Assembly: GCA_016186435.1 (NCBI GenBank)
Contig: JACPLQ010000001.1
Span: 1-59,212 of the forward strand
Direction: 5' to 3'
DNA length: 59,212 bases
DNA from: Candidatus Nomurabacteria bacterium
GTDB lineage: Bacteria; Patescibacteriota; Minisyncoccia; Phycocordibacterales; UBA9973
The first letter of the stretch is position 1; the number at the start of each line of letters is the position of its first letter. The position numbers and the translations under genes were made by a program. Of this stretch, positions 3,971 to 59,024 are shown piece by piece. The notes beneath the pieces are model-generated. The model made no database searches. It was given only the letters and a program-made list of their open reading frames with translations, and was not told the DNA's origin.

Positions 3971-3975
3971 CTCTG

Positions 3976-4060
3976 CGGAGGGTAGGAGATTCGGACTCCT
4001 GATGGATTGCTCCATACGTCGTTTCCAACGACGCGCACTAGACCGCTATGCGAACCCTCC
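3976..4060 (-). tRNA. tRNA-Ser(GGA), class II with a long variable arm; no encoded CCA
   Basis: Hand fold: acceptor GGAGGGT/ACCCTCC, anticodon arm CGTCG-TTGGAAA-CGACG, variable arm ATGGA/TCCAT, T arm AGGAG-TCCGAAT-CTCCT. Note C at position 55. Confidence 0.8.
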
Positions 4061-54143: not shown

Positions 54144-55589
54144 ATGGACAACAACCACGCGCGTTCTGTGCCCCTCAAGAATTTTTTAGAAATCCCGTAC
54201 GACACTCTGGAGGAGATGAATCTGAAAGCCAAGGACCGCGCGGAAAAGCTAACTCCCGCAATGCTGGAAAAAGAATATCGTGCGTATCTCCTAAAAGAAA
54301 AACGCATCAAGGCCGTCACTCTTTGCTTTACCGATATCGAGGGGCGGTTTCATATGCTGGACTATGACAAGAAATTTTTTCTCCATTCCGCGGACAATCT
54401 CACTTTTGACGGTTCTTCCATCCGCGGCTTTACAGAGCAGCACGAGTCCGACTTGCGCATCGCGGCGGACTGGGCGAGCATCCGCTTCCTACCGTCCGAC
54501 GTGTTTGGGCCCGGCAAGGTGGTTATGTTCGTAGATGTTTTTGGCAGGGACCGCAAGCCTTACGTCTCGGATTTCCGGGCCCAGCTCAAGCTCCACGCGG
54601 AAGCTCTTCGGAAAAAAAGCGGCATTACCGCCTTCGCCGCGGCGGAGGTAGAGGGTTTTTTGGTGGACGGCGTCAACTCCGAGCAGGAGTATGATAAAAA
54701 AGGCTTTAACCTTATTTCCACCGGCGGCTATTACCATTCTCTGCCGCTGGATCGCCTGCGCCAATTTATCGACCGCGCCGCGGAGGCAGAGCGCGCCATG
54801 GGTTTCAAGAACGAAAAGGACCATCCGGAAGTCGCGCCTTCGCAGTTTGAGATGAATTTTTCTTACGCCGATATTGTGCGCGCCGCCGACAATATACAAT
54901 TGTACAAGCTGGTCTGCCGGCAGGTGGCCAACAACTTGGGTATGACCGCGACTTTCCTGCCCAAACCGGTGGTGGGGATTAACGGCTCCGGCATGCACAC
55001 CAATTTTTCTCTTGCCAAAAACGGCAAAAATATTTTTTACAGCAAGAATGGCCAGGAGGGCCTGTCGAATATAGCATGGGATTTCATCTCCCGCATTTTG
55101 AATCATGCGCCGGAAACATGCTTGGCGTTCAACTCGAGCGTCAATGCCTATCGGCGCCTGGACCCGCATTTTGAAGCGCCCAACCAGATAAAAGTTTCGC
55201 CCATAGACCGCGGGGCGATGATTCGCATACCGGTAGGCAACGAGAAAACCACCCGCATTGAAGTGCGCTCCGTGGCGCCGGATGCCAATCCCTACCTCGT
55301 GCTCTACACCATCCTTCGGACCGGGCTCGAAGGCAAACTTTTGGTTAAGGACAAGGATAAGCGAGACCGTGTGCGAACACTGCCGGATAATATAGGCGAC
55401 GCCATAAAACTATTCAAGTCGAGCGATTTCGTGGGGAAAATCTTGGGCGCTGAAAACCAGAACAAGTATGCGGAGTTCAAGCAAATGGCCGCGGACCGGA
55501 GCCCTAAAGAGCTGGGTAAAATCATAAAACCTTCGGAAATAGTTTATCACCACGAAGTTACCAACCAGGTGCTTTGGTATAATTTCTAG
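54144..55589 (+). CDS. glnA: glutamine synthetase (type I-like)
   Basis: Beta-grasp plus catalytic domain motifs (HPEVAPSQFEMNF, GSGMHTNFSL, NAYRRL, RIEVRSVAPDANPYL). It is more GC-rich than its flanks. Confidence 0.9.
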   Translation: MDNNHARSVPLKNFLEIPYDTLEEMNLKAKDRAEKLTPAMLEKEYRAYLLKEKRIKAVTLCFTDIEGRFHMLDYDKKFFLHSADNLTFDGSSIRGFTEQHESDLRIAADWASIRFLPSDVFGPGKVVMFVDVFGRDRKPYVSDFRAQLKLHAEALRKKSGITAFAAAEVEGFLVDGVNSEQEYDKKGFNLISTGGYYHSLPLDRLRQFIDRAAEAERAMGFKNEKDHPEVAPSQFEMNFSYADIVRAADNIQLYKLVCRQVANNLGMTATFLPKPVVGINGSGMHTNFSLAKNGKNIFYSKNGQEGLSNIAWDFISRILNHAPETCLAFNSSVNAYRRLDPHFEAPNQIKVSPIDRGAMIRIPVGNEKTTRIEVRSVAPDANPYLVLYTILRTGLEGKLLVKDKDKRDRVRTLPDNIGDAIKLFKSSDFVGKILGAENQNKYAEFKQMAADRSPKELGKIIKPSEIVYHHEVTNQVLWYNF

Positions 55590-55624
55590 TGCGCCTAGCG
55601 TAGTGCGTTTATTAAACCATATCC

Positions 55625-55702
55625 GAACCTATTTTCAAAACAAATAAAGCGGACGAATTTTTGCGAAACAATGCGGACTTTTCTTTTGGGAATGGGGAAT
55701 TT
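55625..55702. repeat. left copy (78 nt) of the inverted repeat element flanking the 3-kb segment
   Basis: Its reverse complement aligns with 58720-58750 (about 29/31) and 58844-58890 (about 43/47). Confidence 0.85.
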
Positions 55703-55754: not shown

Positions 55755-56051
55755 ATGAAACATGTGGGTAATAAAATTTTAGAATACAAAAAAGAGTTGG
55801 TGGAAACTTTTGCTAAAATTTTCGGAGATAAAAAGTTGATGGCCGAATTTTTGACAGACATTCTAACGCCGACAGAATTTGAGGCTCTAGCTTTAAGGTG
55901 GCAGATAGTTAAAAAACTTAAGAAAGGAGAAACCCATAGATCCATAGCGGAGGATTTGGGTCTTGGTATAAGCACAGTAACTCGAGGTTCTCGTGAACTT
56001 CGTAATAAAAATGGTGGTTTCCATTTAATGTTAAAGAAAATCGGTAAATAG
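55755..56051 (+). CDS. TrpR/YerC/YecD family helix-turn-helix protein
   Basis: LTPTEFEALALRWQIVKKLKKGETHRSIAEDLGLGISTVTRGSRELR. Confidence 0.8.
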   Translation: MKHVGNKILEYKKELVETFAKIFGDKKLMAEFLTDILTPTEFEALALRWQIVKKLKKGETHRSIAEDLGLGISTVTRGSRELRNKNGGFHLMLKKIGK

Positions 56052-56081
56052 ATAGTTAAAAAGTTATTCACAGTGCTACTC

Positions 56082-56109
56082 TTGCATTATATTTTGTATC
56101 TGCTACTAT
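56082..56109 (+). promoter_or_regulatory. promoter-like TTGCAT, 16 nt, TGcTACTAT
   Basis: Read directly from the sequence. Confidence 0.4.
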
Positions 56110-56153
56110 GTACTAGTACACGAATACAAGAGTATTTATGTATTGGATACTAT

Positions 56154-56234
56154 ATGAAAAATAATCTAAAAATGAATGTTTCAATGAAATCTTGGTGGAG
56201 CGCAAACACATATGTTTTTGCGTCTATCTTTTGA
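56154..56234 (+). CDS. candidate 26-codon leader peptide with tandem Trp codons
   Basis: Hand translation gives MKNNLKMNVSMKSWWSANTYVFASIF-stop. TGG TGG lies at 56093-56098 in a roughly 30 percent GC spacer. Confidence 0.4.
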   Translation: MKNNLKMNVSMKSWWSANTYVFASIF

Positions 56235-56272
56235 TTTCTCTTTACTGTCTAAACTAAAAAAGGAATCCAAAA

Positions 56273-56297
56273 ATCGGCGCAAGAGCGTCGATTTTTG
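56273..56297 (+). terminator. rho-independent terminator / candidate attenuator upstream of the ATP-grasp-like ORF
   Basis: atcggcgc-aaga-gcgtcgat followed by ttttt. Confidence 0.65.
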
Positions 56298-56352: not shown

Positions 56353-57636
56353 ATGAAAAATGAAGTAACCGTTAGTGCCCTTAACAGGGCACTTGAAATC
56401 CGAGACTACTGCAACAAGTTGCAGCTCGGATACGATCGGGCACCTGATTGTCATTTCTATGTCGGACCCGATTCGTTCAGACTCAGCGACAATCAGCTTG
56501 ATATTTTTGTCAATCAAGGCGAGCTGTTTCGTACATGGTTCGAGATTACACTCGAATTGTGTACTCGGGCTTACCGAGACGATAGCATGAGTTGGCTTGC
56601 TGATTTGATTGAGGGTGAATCCCCAGATCATGTCAGACAAGTTCACAGACAAGTCCATCTCTCGGGACTCCTCAACATTCCATTATTCGCTCGACCTGAT
56701 ATGTCGGCGATCGGTGCGAGTGTCGAGGTTCAAACACCTGGATCCGGATGGGGTTATCAGACCGCTATTCACAACATGGTCGGTAAATCCCGTTGGACAG
56801 GACCAATCAATGGACTCAAGCAAGCTGTAAAGGCTATGACTGGATCACACAGTACGCCATCGGCGTATGTGCTCTACAACGATCCGTTTTTCCCTGAAGT
56901 CGAGTATTTTTGTCGGCTTTGTGGAGAAGCAGGGATGCAACTTCAAATGCACTTCAAAACATTGCCGTCAGCCTCTGAGGTTAAGTTTGTTCGGCGGCCA
57001 CCTCTCGAAGACCTGCTGTCATACGAAGGTGGCTCGGAACTGGTTCAGTCTTGGTTAGACGGACAGTTGGTACTTGAACCCGGACCTAGTCTGCTGTTCG
57101 ATCAAAAGTTGGCGATTCTGTTTCCGTTTCATCCGCGTCTCAGGGAATTTTATCCTGACTCTGTCAGGCAACTTTTCCCCGAGACTTACTTGGTGGCAAG
57201 AGATAGTCGGCTAGTGTTTAACGGTAAGCCACTGAGTTTGGATGAACTGTCTAGTCTCTCGGGTTCAAAGAGACAGTTTATCCTAAAGTATGCAGGTGCT
57301 AAAAAAGGTCTGCGTGCTGGTGGCAAAGCGGTGTACAACCTTTCTGACTGCAATCATCAGAAGGTTCGGGAACTGCTCGTGATGGCTCTCGAGGACTGGG
57401 AAAAACATCGGTCGCCGTGGCTGATTCAGAAACGGGTACAGCAAAAATACCCAATCGTTTTTCTGGATCATGTTGCGGAGGAGATTCGAGAGGCGCAGTA
57501 CTATGCGCTTTTCCGACCGATGTACAGCTTTCTGCCAGACGAACCATCAGCGATCGTAGCTATGACAGCTCTCTTTCGGAAAGACTGGAAAGTGCATGGC
57601 TCAAGTGATGCCGTCACGCTGCCAGTTGAAGTTTAG
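56353..57636 (+). CDS. hypothetical protein, tentatively a glutathionylspermidine-synthase-like / circularly permuted ATP-grasp amidoligase
   Basis: LFARPDM..VEVQTPGSGWGY (pre-ATP-grasp-like), LLFDQKLAILFPFHPRLREFYP, and ILKYAGAKKGLRAGGKAV (compare VxKPxxGREG). Good SD aggaga. It is visibly higher in GC and uses different codons than its neighbours. Confidence 0.45.
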   Translation: MKNEVTVSALNRALEIRDYCNKLQLGYDRAPDCHFYVGPDSFRLSDNQLDIFVNQGELFRTWFEITLELCTRAYRDDSMSWLADLIEGESPDHVRQVHRQVHLSGLLNIPLFARPDMSAIGASVEVQTPGSGWGYQTAIHNMVGKSRWTGPINGLKQAVKAMTGSHSTPSAYVLYNDPFFPEVEYFCRLCGEAGMQLQMHFKTLPSASEVKFVRRPPLEDLLSYEGGSELVQSWLDGQLVLEPGPSLLFDQKLAILFPFHPRLREFYPDSVRQLFPETYLVARDSRLVFNGKPLSLDELSSLSGSKRQFILKYAGAKKGLRAGGKAVYNLSDCNHQKVRELLVMALEDWEKHRSPWLIQKRVQQKYPIVFLDHVAEEIREAQYYALFRPMYSFLPDEPSAIVAMTALFRKDWKVHGSSDAVTLPVEV

Positions 57637-57642
57637 TTCTTT

Positions 57643-57717
57643 GCGGGAGTAGCTTAATTCTAAAGCTAGGAGACTCCAAATCTTCTGATGAAGGTTAAAG
57701 TCCTTCCTCCCGTGCCA
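57643..57717 (+). tRNA. non-canonical tRNA-Trp(CCA) with encoded CCA
   Basis: Acceptor GCGGGAG/CTCCCGT, anticodon arm GGAGA-CTCCAAA-TCTTC, T arm GAAGG-TTAAAGT-CCTTC (no C56), D loop AATTCTA (no G18/G19). Confidence 0.6.
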
Positions 57718-57725
57718 AGTTGTTC

Positions 57726-57762
57726 AATGAGCATGTAGACTAGTTCTGCGTGCTCATTTTTT
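57726..57762 (+). terminator. rho-independent terminator closing the ATP-grasp-tRNA unit
   Basis: aatgagcatg ... cgtgctcatt followed by tttt. Confidence 0.75.
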
Positions 57763-57813: not shown

Positions 57814-58704
57814 ATGAAAGTAAAACAAATTAAAATTGATAAGAAAAATAAAATACCAGTTTATTTATTCGGCACAGAACCTAAGATTTTACTAATGGCG
57901 GGAGTTCATGGAGATGAAAAAACTGGTGTGGTAATTTTGAAAAAAATAATTAAGCAATTACAAAATAGTAAAAAATCCTACCCTGTCGCAATTATTCCTT
58001 GTGTGAATATGAGAGCATATAGAGATAGCTCAAGAATCAATCCGAAAGATAAAATTGACTTCAATCGTATTTTCCCTGTAATTAAAATTAAAAGTGAGTC
58101 TTACCAGATAGGCAAAGCAATTCAAGATTTTGCGGAAAAATTTACAATGGTCATTGATATTCATGTCTTCACAGGACAACACACATTAATGTGCGGAGTT
58201 GATTTAAATATATCTAAAGGTAAGATACAAAAAAATATTAAAGATATAATGTCACAAATAGGCATGGAAGCTATATGCAGAATCGATCATGCTAGCGAAC
58301 CAAAAAAAGACGGTTCTCTTTGTGCTTACTTGCAGCATAAAAAAGTATTGGCATTCGGCATAGAATTGCCACCCTCTGAAGTATTAACTAAAAATAATTT
58401 CGATACGATAAAAAATAATTTAATTGACTTAATAAAAGGTTTTCAAAAAAGAACCAAGATGCAAAAATTAAAATCATATATCAGACTCCCTGTTCTCAGT
58501 GAATATACTGGATTTTTTTCACCGAATAAAATTCCCGGACTTGAAGTTAAAAAGTACGATACTATCGGAAATATAACAGAAAAAAATCAACAAAAGCACA
58601 ATATAAACTCTCCGTTTAATGGCAGACTTATTTCGGTGAGTTATAAAAAATCTGTGAAAAATGGTGATAAACTATTTGTAATAGGAAAAAAGGTAAAAGG
58701 TTAA
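57814..58704 (+). CDS. succinylglutamate desuccinylase/aspartoacylase (AstE/AspA, M14-like) zinc deacylase with a C-terminal hybrid-barrel domain
   Basis: AGVHGDEKTG, NMRAYRDSSRINPKDKIDFNRIFP, DIHVF. The C-terminal SPFNGRLISVSYKKSVKNGDKLFVIG is lipoyl/hybrid-barrel-like. Confidence 0.7.
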   Translation: MKVKQIKIDKKNKIPVYLFGTEPKILLMAGVHGDEKTGVVILKKIIKQLQNSKKSYPVAIIPCVNMRAYRDSSRINPKDKIDFNRIFPVIKIKSESYQIGKAIQDFAEKFTMVIDIHVFTGQHTLMCGVDLNISKGKIQKNIKDIMSQIGMEAICRIDHASEPKKDGSLCAYLQHKKVLAFGIELPPSEVLTKNNFDTIKNNLIDLIKGFQKRTKMQKLKSYIRLPVLSEYTGFFSPNKIPGLEVKKYDTIGNITEKNQQKHNINSPFNGRLISVSYKKSVKNGDKLFVIGKKVKG

Positions 58705-58719
58705 ACTATTATTTTTAAT

Positions 58720-58890
58720 AAATTCCCCATTCCCAAAAGAAAGGTCCGCGCGGATTCCCTCCCAGACCCTGCCTCCGCGCGGGGAATCCGCATTCCCGCC
58801 AAAACAAATTAGCCGAGTTTTTGCGAATCCTTTTCCCAGAAAATAGTTTCGCAAAAACTCGTCCGCTTTATTTGTTTTGAAAATAGGTTC
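58720..58890. repeat. right copy (171 nt) of the inverted repeat element, with an internal insertion of about 90 nt
   Basis: See 55625-55702. The extra segment contains gcggattcc/ggaatccgc and cgagtttttgcgaa/ttcgcaaaaactcg hairpins. Confidence 0.85.
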
Positions 58891-58915
58891 TAACTTGGTA
58901 CAATAAAGACACAAA

Positions 58916-58949
58916 GTTAAGAAATCTCAAGCAGATGAGATTTCTTAAC
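58916..58949. terminator. 14-bp hairpin acting as a bidirectional terminator
   Basis: gttaagaaatctca-agcaga-tgagatttcttaac, flanked by T/A runs. Confidence 0.7.
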
Positions 58950-58953
58950 TTTG

Positions 58954-59024
58954 TGGACTCACCGGGAATCGGACCCGGGACTCGTCATTGCGAACGACGC
59001 GTAATGCCACTTTACTATGAGCCC
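58954..59024 (-). tRNA. tRNA-Ala(CGC) with G3:U70; T loop TCCGATT (C55); no encoded CCA
   Basis: Acceptor GGGCTCA/TGAGTCC, D arm GTAA-AGTGGCA-TTAC, anticodon arm CGTCG-TTCGCAA-TGACG, T arm CCGGG-TCCGATT-CCCGG. Confidence 0.65.

What the first reader, a model, noticed from the sequence alone, without database searches (positions are those of the whole stretch)
57643..57717. tRNA-Trp(CCA) lacking the conserved elbow nucleotides, embedded in an mRNA 3' end
The cloverleaf folds well, with a 7-bp acceptor (G1:U72), a 5-bp anticodon stem, U33 and A37, and a perfect 5-bp T stem. However, the D loop (AATTCTA) has no G18/G19 and the T loop is TTAAAGT with A instead of C56. Both partners of the G19:C56 elbow pair are therefore missing together. 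Unlike the other complete tRNAs in the window, it encodes its CCA. It begins 6 nt after the stop codon of the GC-richer ORF and precedes that unit's terminator. It could be a foreign or phage-type tRNA, a specialised substrate, or a tRNA-like processing or stability element.
Basis: seen in the sequence. Interest (0 to 1): 0.6.

Follow-up and report, generated by a model that had tools for sequence, protein, structure and literature searches.

The report
Elbow-less second tRNA-Trp in Trp operon
A real but structurally stripped-down second tryptophan tRNA is transcribed on the tail of a tryptophan-starvation-controlled ligase gene in an ultra-small (CPR) bacterium, and the way evolution has kept it suggests a job other than routine protein synthesis.

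Summary
Window 57643-57717(+) is a true tRNA-Trp(CCA) (ARAGORN; Rfam 52 bits). It is the only one of the genome's 41 tRNAs that lacks both G18/G19 and C56. A canonical tRNA-Trp (contig C13) and TrpRS exist elsewhere. The tRNA starts 6 nt after a 427-aa glutathione-synthetase-fold ATP-grasp ligase and precedes that unit's terminator. It lies in an inverted-repeat-bracketed module (TrpR, operator, WW leader, ligase, tRNA, AstE-type deacylase) not found in 80 related genomes. In 14 other Patescibacteria loci (ligase 46-94% identical) a tRNA-Trp adjoins the ligase; relatives use Trp T-boxes. Elbows are canonical in the T-box clade and lost in all loci at or above 62% identity. Even so, acceptor and T helices stay fully paired through compensatory changes, and G73, A9, the CCA anticodon and core tertiary bases are invariant. 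It is therefore a selected, probably Trp-chargeable RNA, not a pseudogene or phage tRNA. Its role is inferred: a dedicated off-ribosome Trp carrier for the ligase/deacylase pair (~0.35). Rivals are a relaxed decoding isoacceptor (the host lacks L1 and TruB) and a 3' processing/stability element. The scan noted analogous Trp-controlled ligase-deacylase operons on other DNA.

The parts
55596..55702 (.). Left arm of the inverted repeats that bracket the module
   Evidence: the repeat finder I1 (77 nt, 83%) and I2 (30 nt, 97%) pair 55596-55702 with 58720-58919. The same repeat ends contig L006.
55755..56051 (+). TrpR-family repressor gene (98 aa)
   Evidence: Pfam PF01371 Trp_repressor, E 4.8e-19; TIGR01321 E 2e-13. 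TrpR genes are also present next to the ligase in L002 and L017.
56067..56095 (+). Promoter-like site for the leader-ligase-tRNA unit
   Evidence: TTCACA-17-TATTTT consensus match. This is a consensus match only.
56109..56120 (.). Perfect palindrome TGTACTAGTACA, a TrpR-type operator candidate
   Evidence: Sequence. It shares the ACTAGTAC/GTACTAGT core of E. coli trpO GAACTAGTTAACTAGTAC (PMC13762905). It is conserved in L006, L007 and L016. An equivalent TTGTACTAGTACAA occurs in L017 and GCATACTAGTATACTAGTATGC in L001. It is the only intergenic copy in the genome.
56154..56234 (+). 26-codon leader ORF MKNNLKMNVSMKSWWSANTYVFASIF with tandem Trp codons at 56193-56198
   Evidence: WW is conserved in L006, L018 and L001, and in a non-homologous leader in L017 (MNLFKTYWWQ...).
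56268..56297 (+). Attenuator terminator hairpin plus T tract
   Evidence: Terminator scan: 13 pairs plus TTCTTTG. Compensatory changes are seen in L006 and L018. The terminator/antiterminator switch is predicted for L001.
56353..57636 (+). 427-aa ATP-grasp ligase of the eukaryotic glutathione-synthetase / GspS / Cp1B fold (no Pfam or NCBIfam family)
   Evidence: No Pfam or NCBIfam hit. AF2 pLDDT 92.4. Foldseek 2hgs E 1.7e-11, TM 0.64, plus YgiC/YjfC, GspS and Cp1B. 34 close homologues and 455 clusters at profile level.
57643..57717 (+). tRNA-Trp(CCA) paralogue lacking G18/G19 and C56, with encoded CCA
57726..57758 (+). Intrinsic terminator that ends the leader-ligase-tRNA transcript
   Evidence: 14-pair stem followed by TTTTCTTCCT. 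It is conserved in L006, L017, L018, L019 and L001.
57814..58704 (+). AstE/AspA-family zinc deacylase (296 aa, no Trp residues)
   Evidence: Pfam PF24827 E 6.5e-23. PDB relatives are succinylglutamate desuccinylase/aspartoacylase and N-acetyl-DABA deacetylase. It is adjacent to the ligase in all 12 relatives' loci whose called genes were listed. 0 Trp, pI 9.87.
58720..58919 (.). Right arm of the bracketing inverted repeats

Best explanation
The RNA is a genuine tRNA-Trp paralogue under selection, made from the 3' end of the leader-ligase transcript. Transcription from the TrpR-operated promoter passes the WW-leader attenuator only when tryptophan and charged tRNA-Trp are scarce. The read-through transcript carries the ATP-grasp ligase mRNA, then the tRNA 6 nt later, then a terminator. 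RNase P and 3' trimming would release a 75-nt tRNA that already has its CCA. It descends from the ordinary tRNA-Trp that sits 5-7 nt behind the same ligase in Trp-T-box-controlled versions of the operon. After the module entered a lineage that has its own housekeeping tRNA-Trp, the copy lost the D-loop/T-loop elbow contacts (G18, G19, C56). It kept the acceptor and T helices, the L-shape core (U8, A14, A15, A21, U54, A58) and the bacterial TrpRS identity set (G73, A9, G3-C70 to G5-C68, C34C35A36). My committed reading is that the host TrpRS charges it with Trp and that it works mainly off the ribosome. In this reading it is the Trp-carrying partner of the ligase/AstE-deacylase pair. The acyl-phosphate made by the ATP-grasp enzyme would be attacked by the alpha-amine of Trp-tRNA, which is PEARL- or Fem-like logic on a different fold. 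Shown: identity as a tRNA, its uniqueness in the genome, co-transcription architecture, Trp-responsive control, conserved linkage to the ligase, the evolutionary series from canonical to elbow-less, and purifying selection on the helices. Inferred: processing, charging, poor ribosomal use, and use by the ligase.
For: It is the only one of 41 tRNAs without C56 and without both elbow partners, and a canonical tRNA-Trp lies on C13. TrpRS is present. The transcription unit is promoter-like site, operator palindrome, WW leader, attenuator, ligase, tRNA, terminator. Trp control recurs by three mechanisms in relatives. These are TrpR-type operators plus WW leaders in L006, L017, L018 and L001, and Trp T-boxes with a UGG specifier in L019 (100.7 bits), L040, L041, L008, L042, L028 and L024. 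A tRNA-Trp lies 5-7 nt after the ligase stop in 13 of 14 aligned loci spanning 46-100% ligase identity, and overlaps the stop in L041. The elbow is canonical in L042, L028, L022, L024, L041 and L040. GG is lost in all 8 loci with ligase at or above 62% identity. Within those 8, 98.4% of acceptor, D and T cells are paired and 6 of 16 pairs carry compensatory double changes. No shuffle out of 500 reaches this, and slid controls give 45-65%. G73, T8, A9, A14, A15, the CCA anticodon with A37, T54 and T55 are invariant while the loop interiors vary. Window-type genomes G082 and G083 hold a separate canonical tRNA-Trp, whereas in the Kuenenbacteria genome G081 the operon copy is the only one found. 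Trp identity elements are taken from PMC9976931 Table 1. Precedent for elbow-less non-ribosomal isoacceptors comes from S. aureus tRNAGly NP1/NP2 (PMC4574755). The ligase fold makes acyl-phosphates that amines attack, as shown for Cp1B (PMC12568646).
Against: The ligase has pI 6.33 and no extra RNA-binding domain. All characterised structural relatives use small molecules, and remote relatives are fused to HMGL-like small-molecule enzymes. The ligase/AstE pair persists without an adjacent tRNA in L020/L023 and L002 and in the ~30% relatives, so the tRNA is dispensable or replaceable there. The T stem (GAAGG/CCTTC) is the same as in the genome where this tRNA type seems to be the sole tRNA-Trp, so there is no sign of EF-Tu avoidance. 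The anticodon arm is irregular in L019, L038, L001 and L039 (8-9-nt loops or mismatches), which would also hurt TrpRS recognition. Spending Trp-tRNA when Trp is short is paradoxical. The host lacks L1 and TruB, so elbow loss may cost less in translation than in model bacteria.
Confidence: 0.35

Rival explanations
1. It is a redundant but still decoding isoacceptor under relaxed selection. The tRNA is simply the old housekeeping tRNA-Trp of the operon, carried along when the module moved. It still reads UGG, is co-induced with the operon, and has drifted at the elbow because a second, better tRNA-Trp exists and because this organism lacks two elbow readers.
For: Ancestral versions are canonical, and in G081 the operon copy is apparently the sole tRNA-Trp. 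L042 has trpS directly after it. The T stem is unchanged from the sole-copy form. The genome has no L1 and no TruB. It tolerates position-55 variants in six tRNAs, including its only tRNA-Phe and tRNA-Cys. TrpRS identity elements are retained.
Against: The other 40 tRNAs all keep C56 and at least 38 keep GG at 18/19, so the elbow is still strongly selected in this genome. Redundant genes are normally deleted in 0.7-Mb genomes, yet this one persists with compensatory changes across ligase divergence down to 62%. Relatives in the same clade have 8-9-nt anticodon loops or lack U33 (L019, L038), which is poorly compatible with normal decoding. No benefit of extra tRNA-Trp during Trp shortage is evident.
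Confidence: 0.27
2. It is a cis-acting 3' element derived from a tRNA. The cloverleaf serves the ligase mRNA as a stable 3' structure against exonucleases, or as an RNase P/RNase Z cleavage site that sets the mRNA's half-life and separates it from downstream RNA. Elbow loss slows RNase P cleavage and so prolongs mRNA life once the tRNA product is no longer needed.
For: The distance to the stop codon is fixed at 5-7 nt in 13 of 14 loci, and in L041 the stop codon lies inside the tRNA, so tRNA excision would destroy that mRNA. The acceptor and T arms (the RNase P minihelix) are the best conserved parts, while the anticodon arm is the least regular. Where the tRNA is missing, a strong hairpin begins within a few nt of the stop: terminators in L020, L023 and L002, and 60-68-nt rod hairpins with z -5 to -8.7 in the ~30% relatives, which start with the same (G/A)CAGGG as some tRNA acceptor arms.
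Against: A mere structure or cleavage signal does not need G73, A9, the CCA anticodon plus A37, U8/A14/A21 or U54/A58, yet these are invariant while neutral loop positions vary. A dedicated terminator hairpin already follows the tRNA. Encoded CCA is kept in most copies.
Confidence: 0.2
3. It is a regulatory competitor or decoy. It is charged by TrpRS but used poorly by ribosomes, so it drains Trp/TrpRS capacity (or binds TrpRS uncharged). This lowers the charged housekeeping tRNA-Trp and sharpens read-through at the WW leader, giving a feed-forward switch.
For: It is produced only after attenuator read-through. TrpRS identity is retained and the elbow is lost. The elbow-less state is invisible to T-box stem I platforms, which need the elbow (PMC4574755 introduction).
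Against: This is entirely inferential. L019 combines a T-box with an elbow-less copy, and T-box clades carry canonical copies, so there is no consistent link between regulator type and tRNA state. A self-starving loop seems costly for a Trp auxotroph.
Confidence: 0.08
4. It is a decaying pseudogene or a phage-derived tRNA.
For: It is redundant with the C13 copy. It was lost outright in L020/L023 and L002. Irregular anticodon arms occur in some relatives. It sits in a mobile-looking module.
Against: Helices are 98.4% paired with six compensatory pairs. Rfam scores 52 bits. The ligase has no relative in viral contigs and the window-clade tRNA pattern has no exact match there. No phage genes are present in the module.
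Confidence: 0.06

Closest known systems
Canonical bacterial tRNA-Trp (Rfam RF00005; E. coli / B. subtilis tRNATrp)
   Same: Cloverleaf, CCA anticodon, U33, A37, discriminator G73, A9, G3-C70, G4-C69, G5-C68, U8/A14/A21 and the U54:A58 core. It descends from a canonical copy, as the series L042 / L028 / L022 to the window shows.
   Different: There is no G18/G19, and position 56 is A instead of C. The first pairs are G1:U72 and C2-G71 instead of A1-U72 (or G1-C72) and G2-C71. There is an extra nucleotide with a sixth anticodon-stem pair. It is a second copy inside a protein-coding operon.
Non-proteinogenic tRNAGly isoacceptors of Staphylococcus (NP1, NP2; glycine donors for FemXAB)
   Same: An extra isoacceptor beside a canonical one. 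It lacks the D-loop G18/G19 and the T-loop partner, and it can plausibly be charged by the single cognate synthetase.
   Different: The amino acid is Trp, not Gly. U55 is kept. There is no evidence of weak EF-Tu binding, because the T stem equals that of a sole-copy relative. The neighbouring enzyme is an ATP-grasp ligase, not a Fem-type (GNAT-fold) transferase. It is co-transcribed with the enzyme and under starvation control.
PEARLs (peptide aminoacyl-tRNA ligases, including Trp-tRNA-using members of pyrroloiminoquinone pathways)
   Same: The proposed chemistry is the same: ATP-dependent phosphorylation of a carboxylate, then attack by the amine of an aminoacyl-tRNA, with a hydrolase partner. 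Earlier scan notes report LanB/PEARL-like ligases in analogous Trp-controlled operons with AstE-type deacylases.
   Different: The fold is unrelated (glutathione-synthetase-type ATP-grasp against LanB-like). No scaffold peptide was found, and the small ORFs in L040 and L042 are not conserved. tRNA use is not shown.
Compact tRNAs without a canonical elbow: tRNAPyl and animal mitochondrial tRNAs (recalled from memory)
   Same: A small D loop without GG, a T loop without the conserved C56, a six-pair anticodon stem and a short variable loop.
   Different: The anticodon is CCA, not CUA. There are two nucleotides, not one, between the acceptor and D stems. No PylS-type partner is present. This is a bacterial chromosome with 40 otherwise ordinary tRNAs.
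tRNA-like 3'-end elements and tRNA punctuation (MALAT1 mascRNA, mitochondrial polycistrons, bacterial mRNA-tRNA co-transcripts)
   Same: A tRNA structure lies directly after a coding sequence, so RNase P cleavage would define the mRNA 3' end. In L041 the stop codon lies inside the tRNA.
   Different: Those elements do not need aminoacylation identity elements, whereas this one keeps them. A separate terminator follows it.
trp-type leader-peptide attenuators, TrpR operators and Trp T-boxes (context)
   Same: Tandem Trp codons in a short leader followed by a terminator; a CTAG-centred palindrome like trpO; T-boxes with a UGG specifier.
   Different: The controlled genes are neither trp biosynthesis genes nor (except in L042) trpS. 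They are an uncharacterised ligase, a deacylase and a tRNA, in a Trp auxotroph.

Membership tests
tRNA (Rfam RF00005) | Covariance-model score above the gathering threshold | tested here: met
   52 bits against 29, E 2.6e-8. ARAGORN also calls it.
tRNA (Rfam RF00005) | Four-helix cloverleaf maintained by covariation | tested here: met
   Acceptor, D and T helices are 98.4% paired, 6 of 16 pairs carry double changes, and 0 of 500 shuffles reach this. The anticodon stem parses as 5 pairs in most copies.
tRNA (Rfam RF00005) | Conserved elbow nucleotides G18, G19, U55, C56 | tested here: not met
   The D loop is AATTCTA and the T loop TTAAAGT. Only U55 remains. This is unique among the genome's 41 tRNAs.
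Bacterial tRNA-Trp identity | G73 discriminator and C34 C35 A36 | tested here: met
   Present in the window copy and in all 15 operon-linked copies. The elements are as listed in PMC9976931 Table 1.
Bacterial tRNA-Trp identity | A9 and acceptor pairs A1-U72, G2-C71, G3-C70, G4-C69, G5-C68 | tested here: inconclusive
   A9, G3-C70, G4-C69 and G5-C68 are present. Pair 1-72 is G:U and pair 2-71 is C-G. The TrpRS of this organism has not been characterised.
Bacterial tRNA-Trp identity | Aminoacylation with Trp by TrpRS | not testable with these tools
   TrpRS is encoded on C14 (TIGR00233, 263 bits). A charging assay is needed.
Non-proteinogenic tRNA isoacceptors (Staphylococcus tRNAGly NP type) | A supernumerary isoacceptor beside a canonical one with the same anticodon class | tested here: met
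   Canonical tRNA-Trp(CCA) lies on C13. The same holds in G082 and G083.
Non-proteinogenic tRNA isoacceptors (Staphylococcus tRNAGly NP type) | Loss of G18/G19 and the T-loop partners | tested here: met
   The feature of the family is described in PMC4574755.
Non-proteinogenic tRNA isoacceptors (Staphylococcus tRNAGly NP type) | T-stem pairs that weaken EF-Tu binding | tested here: inconclusive
   The T stem GAAGG/CCTTC is identical to that of canonical-elbow relatives, including the apparently sole tRNA-Trp of G081. This argues against special EF-Tu avoidance, but no affinity was measured.
Non-proteinogenic tRNA isoacceptors (Staphylococcus tRNAGly NP type) | Consumption by an aminoacyl-tRNA-dependent transferase | not testable with these tools
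   No Fem-type enzyme is in the module. The neighbour is an ATP-grasp ligase, and no member of its fold family is known to use tRNA.
tRNAPyl-like compact tRNAs | CUA anticodon with a PylS partner | tested here: not met
   The anticodon is CCA. The only class I W/Y-type synthetases found are TyrRS-like and TrpRS. PylS was not searched for specifically.
ATP-grasp ligases of the eukaryotic glutathione-synthetase / GspS fold (neighbouring gene) | Fold match over the full length to solved members | tested here: met
   AF2 pLDDT 92.4. Foldseek hits 2hgs, 3kal and 1m0w with E 1e-11, TM 0.6-0.65, and also 7uk6, 7uk8, 2io7 and 9cjn. There was no sequence-level hit to the PDB or Pfam.
Trp T-box / trp leader regulon (context) | UGG specifier, or tandem Trp codons followed by a terminator | tested here: met
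   L019 T-box at 100.7 bits with GAA-UGG-A. L040 and L041 are the same. Short-stem forms carry UUGGGCAC. WW leaders plus terminators were found in five loci.

The most novel reading that the evidence does not exclude
A glutathione-synthetase-fold ATP-grasp enzyme uses an aminoacyl-tRNA, namely a dedicated ribosome-handicapped Trp-tRNA encoded on its own mRNA, as the amine donor. A still more radical version has it esterifying Trp onto that tRNA through a Trp-phosphate intermediate. Either would form part of a CPR-wide, amino-acid-specific starvation response built from ligase/deacylase pairs.
Probability: 0.2. Interest if true: 0.85.

Novelty: new variant of a known kind. Interest (0 to 1): 0.62.

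Why it matters
Elbow-less tRNAs are almost unknown in bacteria outside the staphylococcal cell-wall tRNAGly species. This case is a second tRNA-Trp that has shed exactly the elbow contacts while keeping its helices, L-shape core and synthetase identity. It is physically fused to the transcript of an uncharacterised ligase that is switched on by tryptophan shortage in a tryptophan-auxotrophic, host-dependent CPR bacterium. Related loci provide a natural series from canonical to elbow-less to deleted, which makes the question "what is the tRNA elbow for?" testable in a natural system. The host also lacks ribosomal protein L1 and TruB. If the tRNA is the ligase's substrate, this would be the first ATP-grasp enzyme known to use aminoacyl-tRNA. 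It would also give a handle on the unexplained ligase-deacylase starvation operons that recur across Patescibacteria.

Tried and rejected
1. Phage origin. The exact tRNA pattern and the ligase profile found nothing in viral contigs.
2. Carrier or scaffold peptide (LysW- or PEARL-like). The small ORFs between the T-box and AstE in L040 and L042 are not conserved and are absent elsewhere.
3. TrpB neighbour. The PALP gene in L042 is ThrC-like by NCBIfam. The L022 fragment is only a generic PALP hit.
4. A second TrpR operator in the genome. The only other GTACTAGTAC lies inside a KsgA-like coding region, so it is probably chance.
5. Thermodynamic folding as a discriminator. The cloverleaf is 4.8 kcal/mol above the MFE for the window copy, but it is 7.4 above for the canonical L022 copy, so this is uninformative.
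6. Antiterminator in the window leader. Simple masked MFE folding did not predict the switch in the window, although it did for L001.
7. Domain fusions of the ligase as a clue to an RNA substrate. The only fusions found were HMGL-like and radical-SAM-like domains in remote relatives.
8. A single origin of elbow loss. The ligase tree leaves L001 and L039 unresolved, so one or several losses cannot be distinguished.
10. An apparent L1 gene after rplK. The 238-aa ORF there is an F420-ligase-like protein, not L1.
Full report
**1. The observation**

ARAGORN finds four tRNAs in the window, among them tRNA-Trp(CCA) at 57643-57717 on the + strand. Rfam's tRNA model scores it 52 bits against a gathering score of 29.
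- acceptor GCGGGAG/CTCCCGT with G1:U72;
- D stem GCTT/AAGC and D loop AATTCTA, where the consensus has GG;
- anticodon stem GGAGA/TCTTC and loop CTCCAAA;
- T stem GAAGG/CCTTC and T loop TTAAAGT, with A at position 56;
- G73 and an encoded CCA.

The tRNA starts 6 nt after the TAG stop of a 427-aa ORF (56353-57636). It is followed by an intrinsic terminator at 57726-57758.

**2. How exceptional it is in this genome**

The window is contig C9 of a 706-kb genome in 29 contigs, rated 98.75% complete. ARAGORN finds 41 tRNAs. A census of D and T loops shows that this is the only tRNA without C56 and the only one missing both elbow partners. CCA is encoded in 9 of the 41, so that feature is not special. 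A canonical tRNA-Trp(CCA), with D loop AGTGGCA and T loop TTCGATT, lies on contig C13. A normal TrpRS gene lies on C14. The genome has no trpB and no chorismate-binding enzyme, so it is a Trp auxotroph.

**3. Surroundings**

On the + strand the elements run in this order:
- a TrpR-family gene (55755-56051);
- a promoter-like site (56067-56095);
- the perfect palindrome TGTACTAGTACA (56109-56120), which shares its core with E. coli trpO GAACTAGTTAACTAGTAC (PMC13762905);
- a 26-codon ORF with tandem Trp codons (56154-56234; TGGTGG at 56193);
- a terminator (56268-56297);
- the 427-aa ORF, then the tRNA, then a terminator;
- an AstE/AspA-family zinc deacylase (57814-58704).

Inverted repeats (55596-55702 against 58720-58919) bracket the whole set. 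The 427-aa protein has no Pfam, NCBIfam or PDB sequence match. A confident AlphaFold model (pLDDT 92.4) matches eukaryotic-type glutathione synthetases (E 1.7e-11, TM 0.64). It also matches E. coli YgiC/YjfC, GspS and the fungal ligase Cp1B. Cp1B phosphorylates a dicarboxylic acid and couples it to an L-amino acid (PMC12568646). The protein is therefore an ATP-grasp carboxylate-amine ligase.

The ligase was not found in 48 other species of the same genus or in 32 other families of the order. The module is a rare accessory element in this lineage.

**4. Relatives**

The ligase has 34 close homologues, all unnamed and from Patescibacteria-type assemblies, and 455 clusters at profile level. In each of the 12 relatives' loci for which called genes were listed, and in the window itself, it is adjacent to an AstE/AspA-type gene, in either order.

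A tRNA-Trp(CCA) follows the ligase in 14 other distinct loci spanning 46-94% ligase identity:
- The gap between stop codon and tRNA is 5-7 nt in 13 of 14 aligned loci.
- In L041 the stop codon TAG is formed by tRNA positions 8-10.
- In L040 the tRNA is adjacent but inverted.

Control by tryptophan recurs through different devices:
- WW leaders and TrpR-type palindromes in L006, L018 and L001, plus an unrelated WW leader (MNLFKTYWWQ...) with TTGTACTAGTACAA in L017.
- T-boxes whose specifier is UGG in L019 (100.7 bits), L040 and L041 (GAA-UGG-A), and in short-stem-I forms in L008, L024, L028 and L042.
- In L042 the operon continues into trpS.

The ligase/deacylase/tRNA set is thus a tryptophan-shortage regulon. 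The scan's earlier notes on other genomes describe Trp T-boxes or Trp leaders in front of non-homologous ligases (GCS2-type, LanB/PEARL-like) paired with AstE-type deacylases. I treat those notes as leads, not as evidence.

**5. The evolutionary series of the tRNA**

- Canonical elbows (GG in the D loop, TTCRAxT in the T loop) are found in L042, L028, L022, L024, L041 and L040.
- L008 keeps GG but has T at position 56.
- All eight loci whose ligase is at least 62% identical to the window's lack GG: L039, L001, L038, L019, L018, L017, L006 and the window.
- Among those eight, C56 is replaced in the window clade (A) and in L001 (T).
- L019, L038, L001 and L039 have irregular anticodon arms, with 8-9-nt loops or mismatches.
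- The tRNA is deleted in L020/L023 and in L002.
- Ligases at about 30% identity are followed by 60-68-nt rod hairpins (z -5 to -8.7) or by plain terminators.

The ligase tree supports the canonical-elbow clade (97/99). It also supports the window clade (96/96) as sister to the tRNA-less L020/L023 pair. It leaves L001, L039, L040 and L041 unresolved, so the number of independent elbow losses is unknown.

Genomes of the window type (G082, G083) hold a separate canonical tRNA-Trp. In the Kuenenbacteria genome G081 the operon copy is the only tRNA-Trp that two pattern searches plus ARAGORN could find. G081 is a MAG of unstated completeness, so this point carries that caveat.

**6. Is the elbow-less form under selection?**

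Within the eight elbow-less sequences, the acceptor and T stems are 100% paired. Six of 16 scored pairs carry changes on both sides. No shuffle out of 500 reaches the observed pairing or covariation, and slid controls fall to 45-65% pairing. T8, A9, A14, A15, the last D-loop A, C34 C35 A36 A37, T54, T55 and G73 are invariant, whereas the interiors of the D and T loops vary freely. This is the signature of an RNA that must still fold as an L-shaped tRNA. It keeps the bacterial Trp identity set (G73, A9, G3-C70 to G5-C68, CCA; PMC9976931). A decaying pseudogene would not look like this.

**7. Interpretation**

Shown by the analysis:
- it is a tRNA;
- it is unique in its genome;
- it is built into the 3' end of a Trp-controlled ligase transcript;
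- the linkage is old and tight;
- the elbow was lost where a second tRNA-Trp exists;
- the rest of the molecule stayed under purifying selection.

Not shown: processing, charging and use.

My leading reading (about 0.35) is a dedicated Trp carrier that works mainly off the ribosome and serves the ligase/deacylase pair. The analogies are the elbow-less staphylococcal tRNAGly species that feed FemXAB (PMC4574755) and PEARL-type chemistry.

Several points count against this reading:
- The ligase is not basic (pI 6.33) and has no extra domain.
- Its structural relatives and fused remote relatives act on small molecules.
- The tRNA has been lost several times.
- The T stem shows no EF-Tu-avoiding change.
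- The anticodon arm is the least conserved part.
- Spending Trp-tRNA during Trp shortage is odd.

The second reading (about 0.27) is an ordinary, relaxed decoding isoacceptor. It gains weight because this genome lacks ribosomal protein L1. There was no PF00687 hit, and at the nusG-rplK locus the next genes are an F420-ligase-like gene and a deaminase. The genome also lacks TruB, and six other tRNAs vary at position 55. Even so, all 40 other tRNAs keep C56.

The third reading (about 0.20) is a tRNA-derived 3' processing or stability element. It is favoured by the fixed 5-7-nt spacing, the L041 overlap, and the strong hairpins that replace the tRNA in other lineages. It is disfavoured by the conserved identity and core nucleotides.

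A decoy/feed-forward role (0.08) and pseudogene or phage origin (0.06) are minor.

**8. Limits**

All relatives come from metagenome assemblies, and near-duplicates (L006/L007/L016, L024/L025) were counted once. The operator and attenuator assignments rest on sequence logic and conservation, not on binding or transcription data.

Noticed in passing
whole genome G000 (contig C12:1-3204 = L069 for the in-situ check): There is no ribosomal protein L1 gene. No PF00687 hit was found in a genome rated 98.75% complete, and after nusG-rplK come an F420-ligase-like gene and a deaminase instead of rplA. TruB was also not found. A CCA-adding enzyme is present on C21.
   Followed up: partly
window 3975-4060 and 58953-59024; G000 C1:1224-1298, C7:20480-20555, C8:10809-10883, C16:1658-1731: Six of 41 tRNAs vary at T-loop position 55. 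TCCGAxT occurs in Ser-GGA, Ala-CGC and Arg-TCT. TGCAAAT occurs in Thr-GGT, Cys-GCA and Phe-GAA, and these three also share an unusual D loop (AGGTAG / AGTAG), which may be an 18:55 covariation. This fits the absence of TruB.
   Followed up: partly
window 55596-55702 and 58720-58919: Inverted repeats (77 nt at 83% plus 30 nt at 97%) bracket the TrpR-leader-ligase-tRNA-AstE module. The same repeat closes contig L006. The module was not found in 80 related genomes, so it looks like a mobile or recombining cassette. No transposase or integrase lies inside it.
   Followed up: partly
L041:3658-3667: The ligase ORF ends with TAG formed by tRNA positions 8-10, a 10-nt overlap of coding sequence and tRNA. 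Excision of the tRNA would therefore leave a non-stop mRNA.
   Followed up: no
L003:5321-5400 (=L011), L009:4276-4345, L013:1440-1515 (=L031): In ligase loci at about 30% identity, very stable 60-68-nt rod hairpins (z -5 to -8.7) stand where the tRNA stands elsewhere. They begin with (G/A)CAGGG and end with CCCTGC, like the acceptor arms of the L022 and L001 tRNAs. Whether they are tRNA relics or a coincidence is unresolved.
   Followed up: partly
operon-linked tRNA-Trp family (window 57667-57689; L008, L022, L024, L028, L038, L041): There is an extra nucleotide after the D stem and a covarying sixth anticodon-stem pair (A:T, C:G, G:C), with a 3-4-nt variable loop. The housekeeping-type copies (C13, L040, L042) do not have this.
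   Followed up: partly
L008:912-1153, L024:290-579, L028:2424-2638, L042:934-1145: These are Trp T-boxes with a much shortened stem I. The specifier region is UUGGGCAC and there is no distal platform. They score 28-58 bits, below Rfam's gathering score. Full-length forms occur in L019, L040 and L041.
   Followed up: partly
L040:3942-4018: A canonical tRNA-Trp lies next to the ligase but on the opposite strand, so adjacency is kept without co-transcription.
   Followed up: no
L008:1237-1785, L022:733-1837, L041:595-1275: Low-molecular-weight phosphatase-like genes (PF01451) lie between the Trp T-box and the AstE/ligase genes in several T-box-type operons.
   Followed up: no
window 54144-55589: A GC-rich (0.52) glutamine-synthetase-family gene, scoring below the cut-offs of GlnA and gamma-glutamylputrescine synthetase, ends just outside the left inverted repeat. 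It is a second amide ligase next to the module.
   Followed up: no
G000 C14:11610-11855: A second TrpR-family gene lies on the same contig as trpS (C14:18679-19488).
   Followed up: no
P0170, P0177, P0125 (remote ligase relatives); L014, L015 (Streptomyces): Remote members of the ligase superfamily are fused to HMGL-like (aldolase/synthase) or radical-SAM-like N-terminal domains. In Streptomyces an HMGL/DmpG-type gene and a methyltransferase flank the homologue.
   Followed up: no
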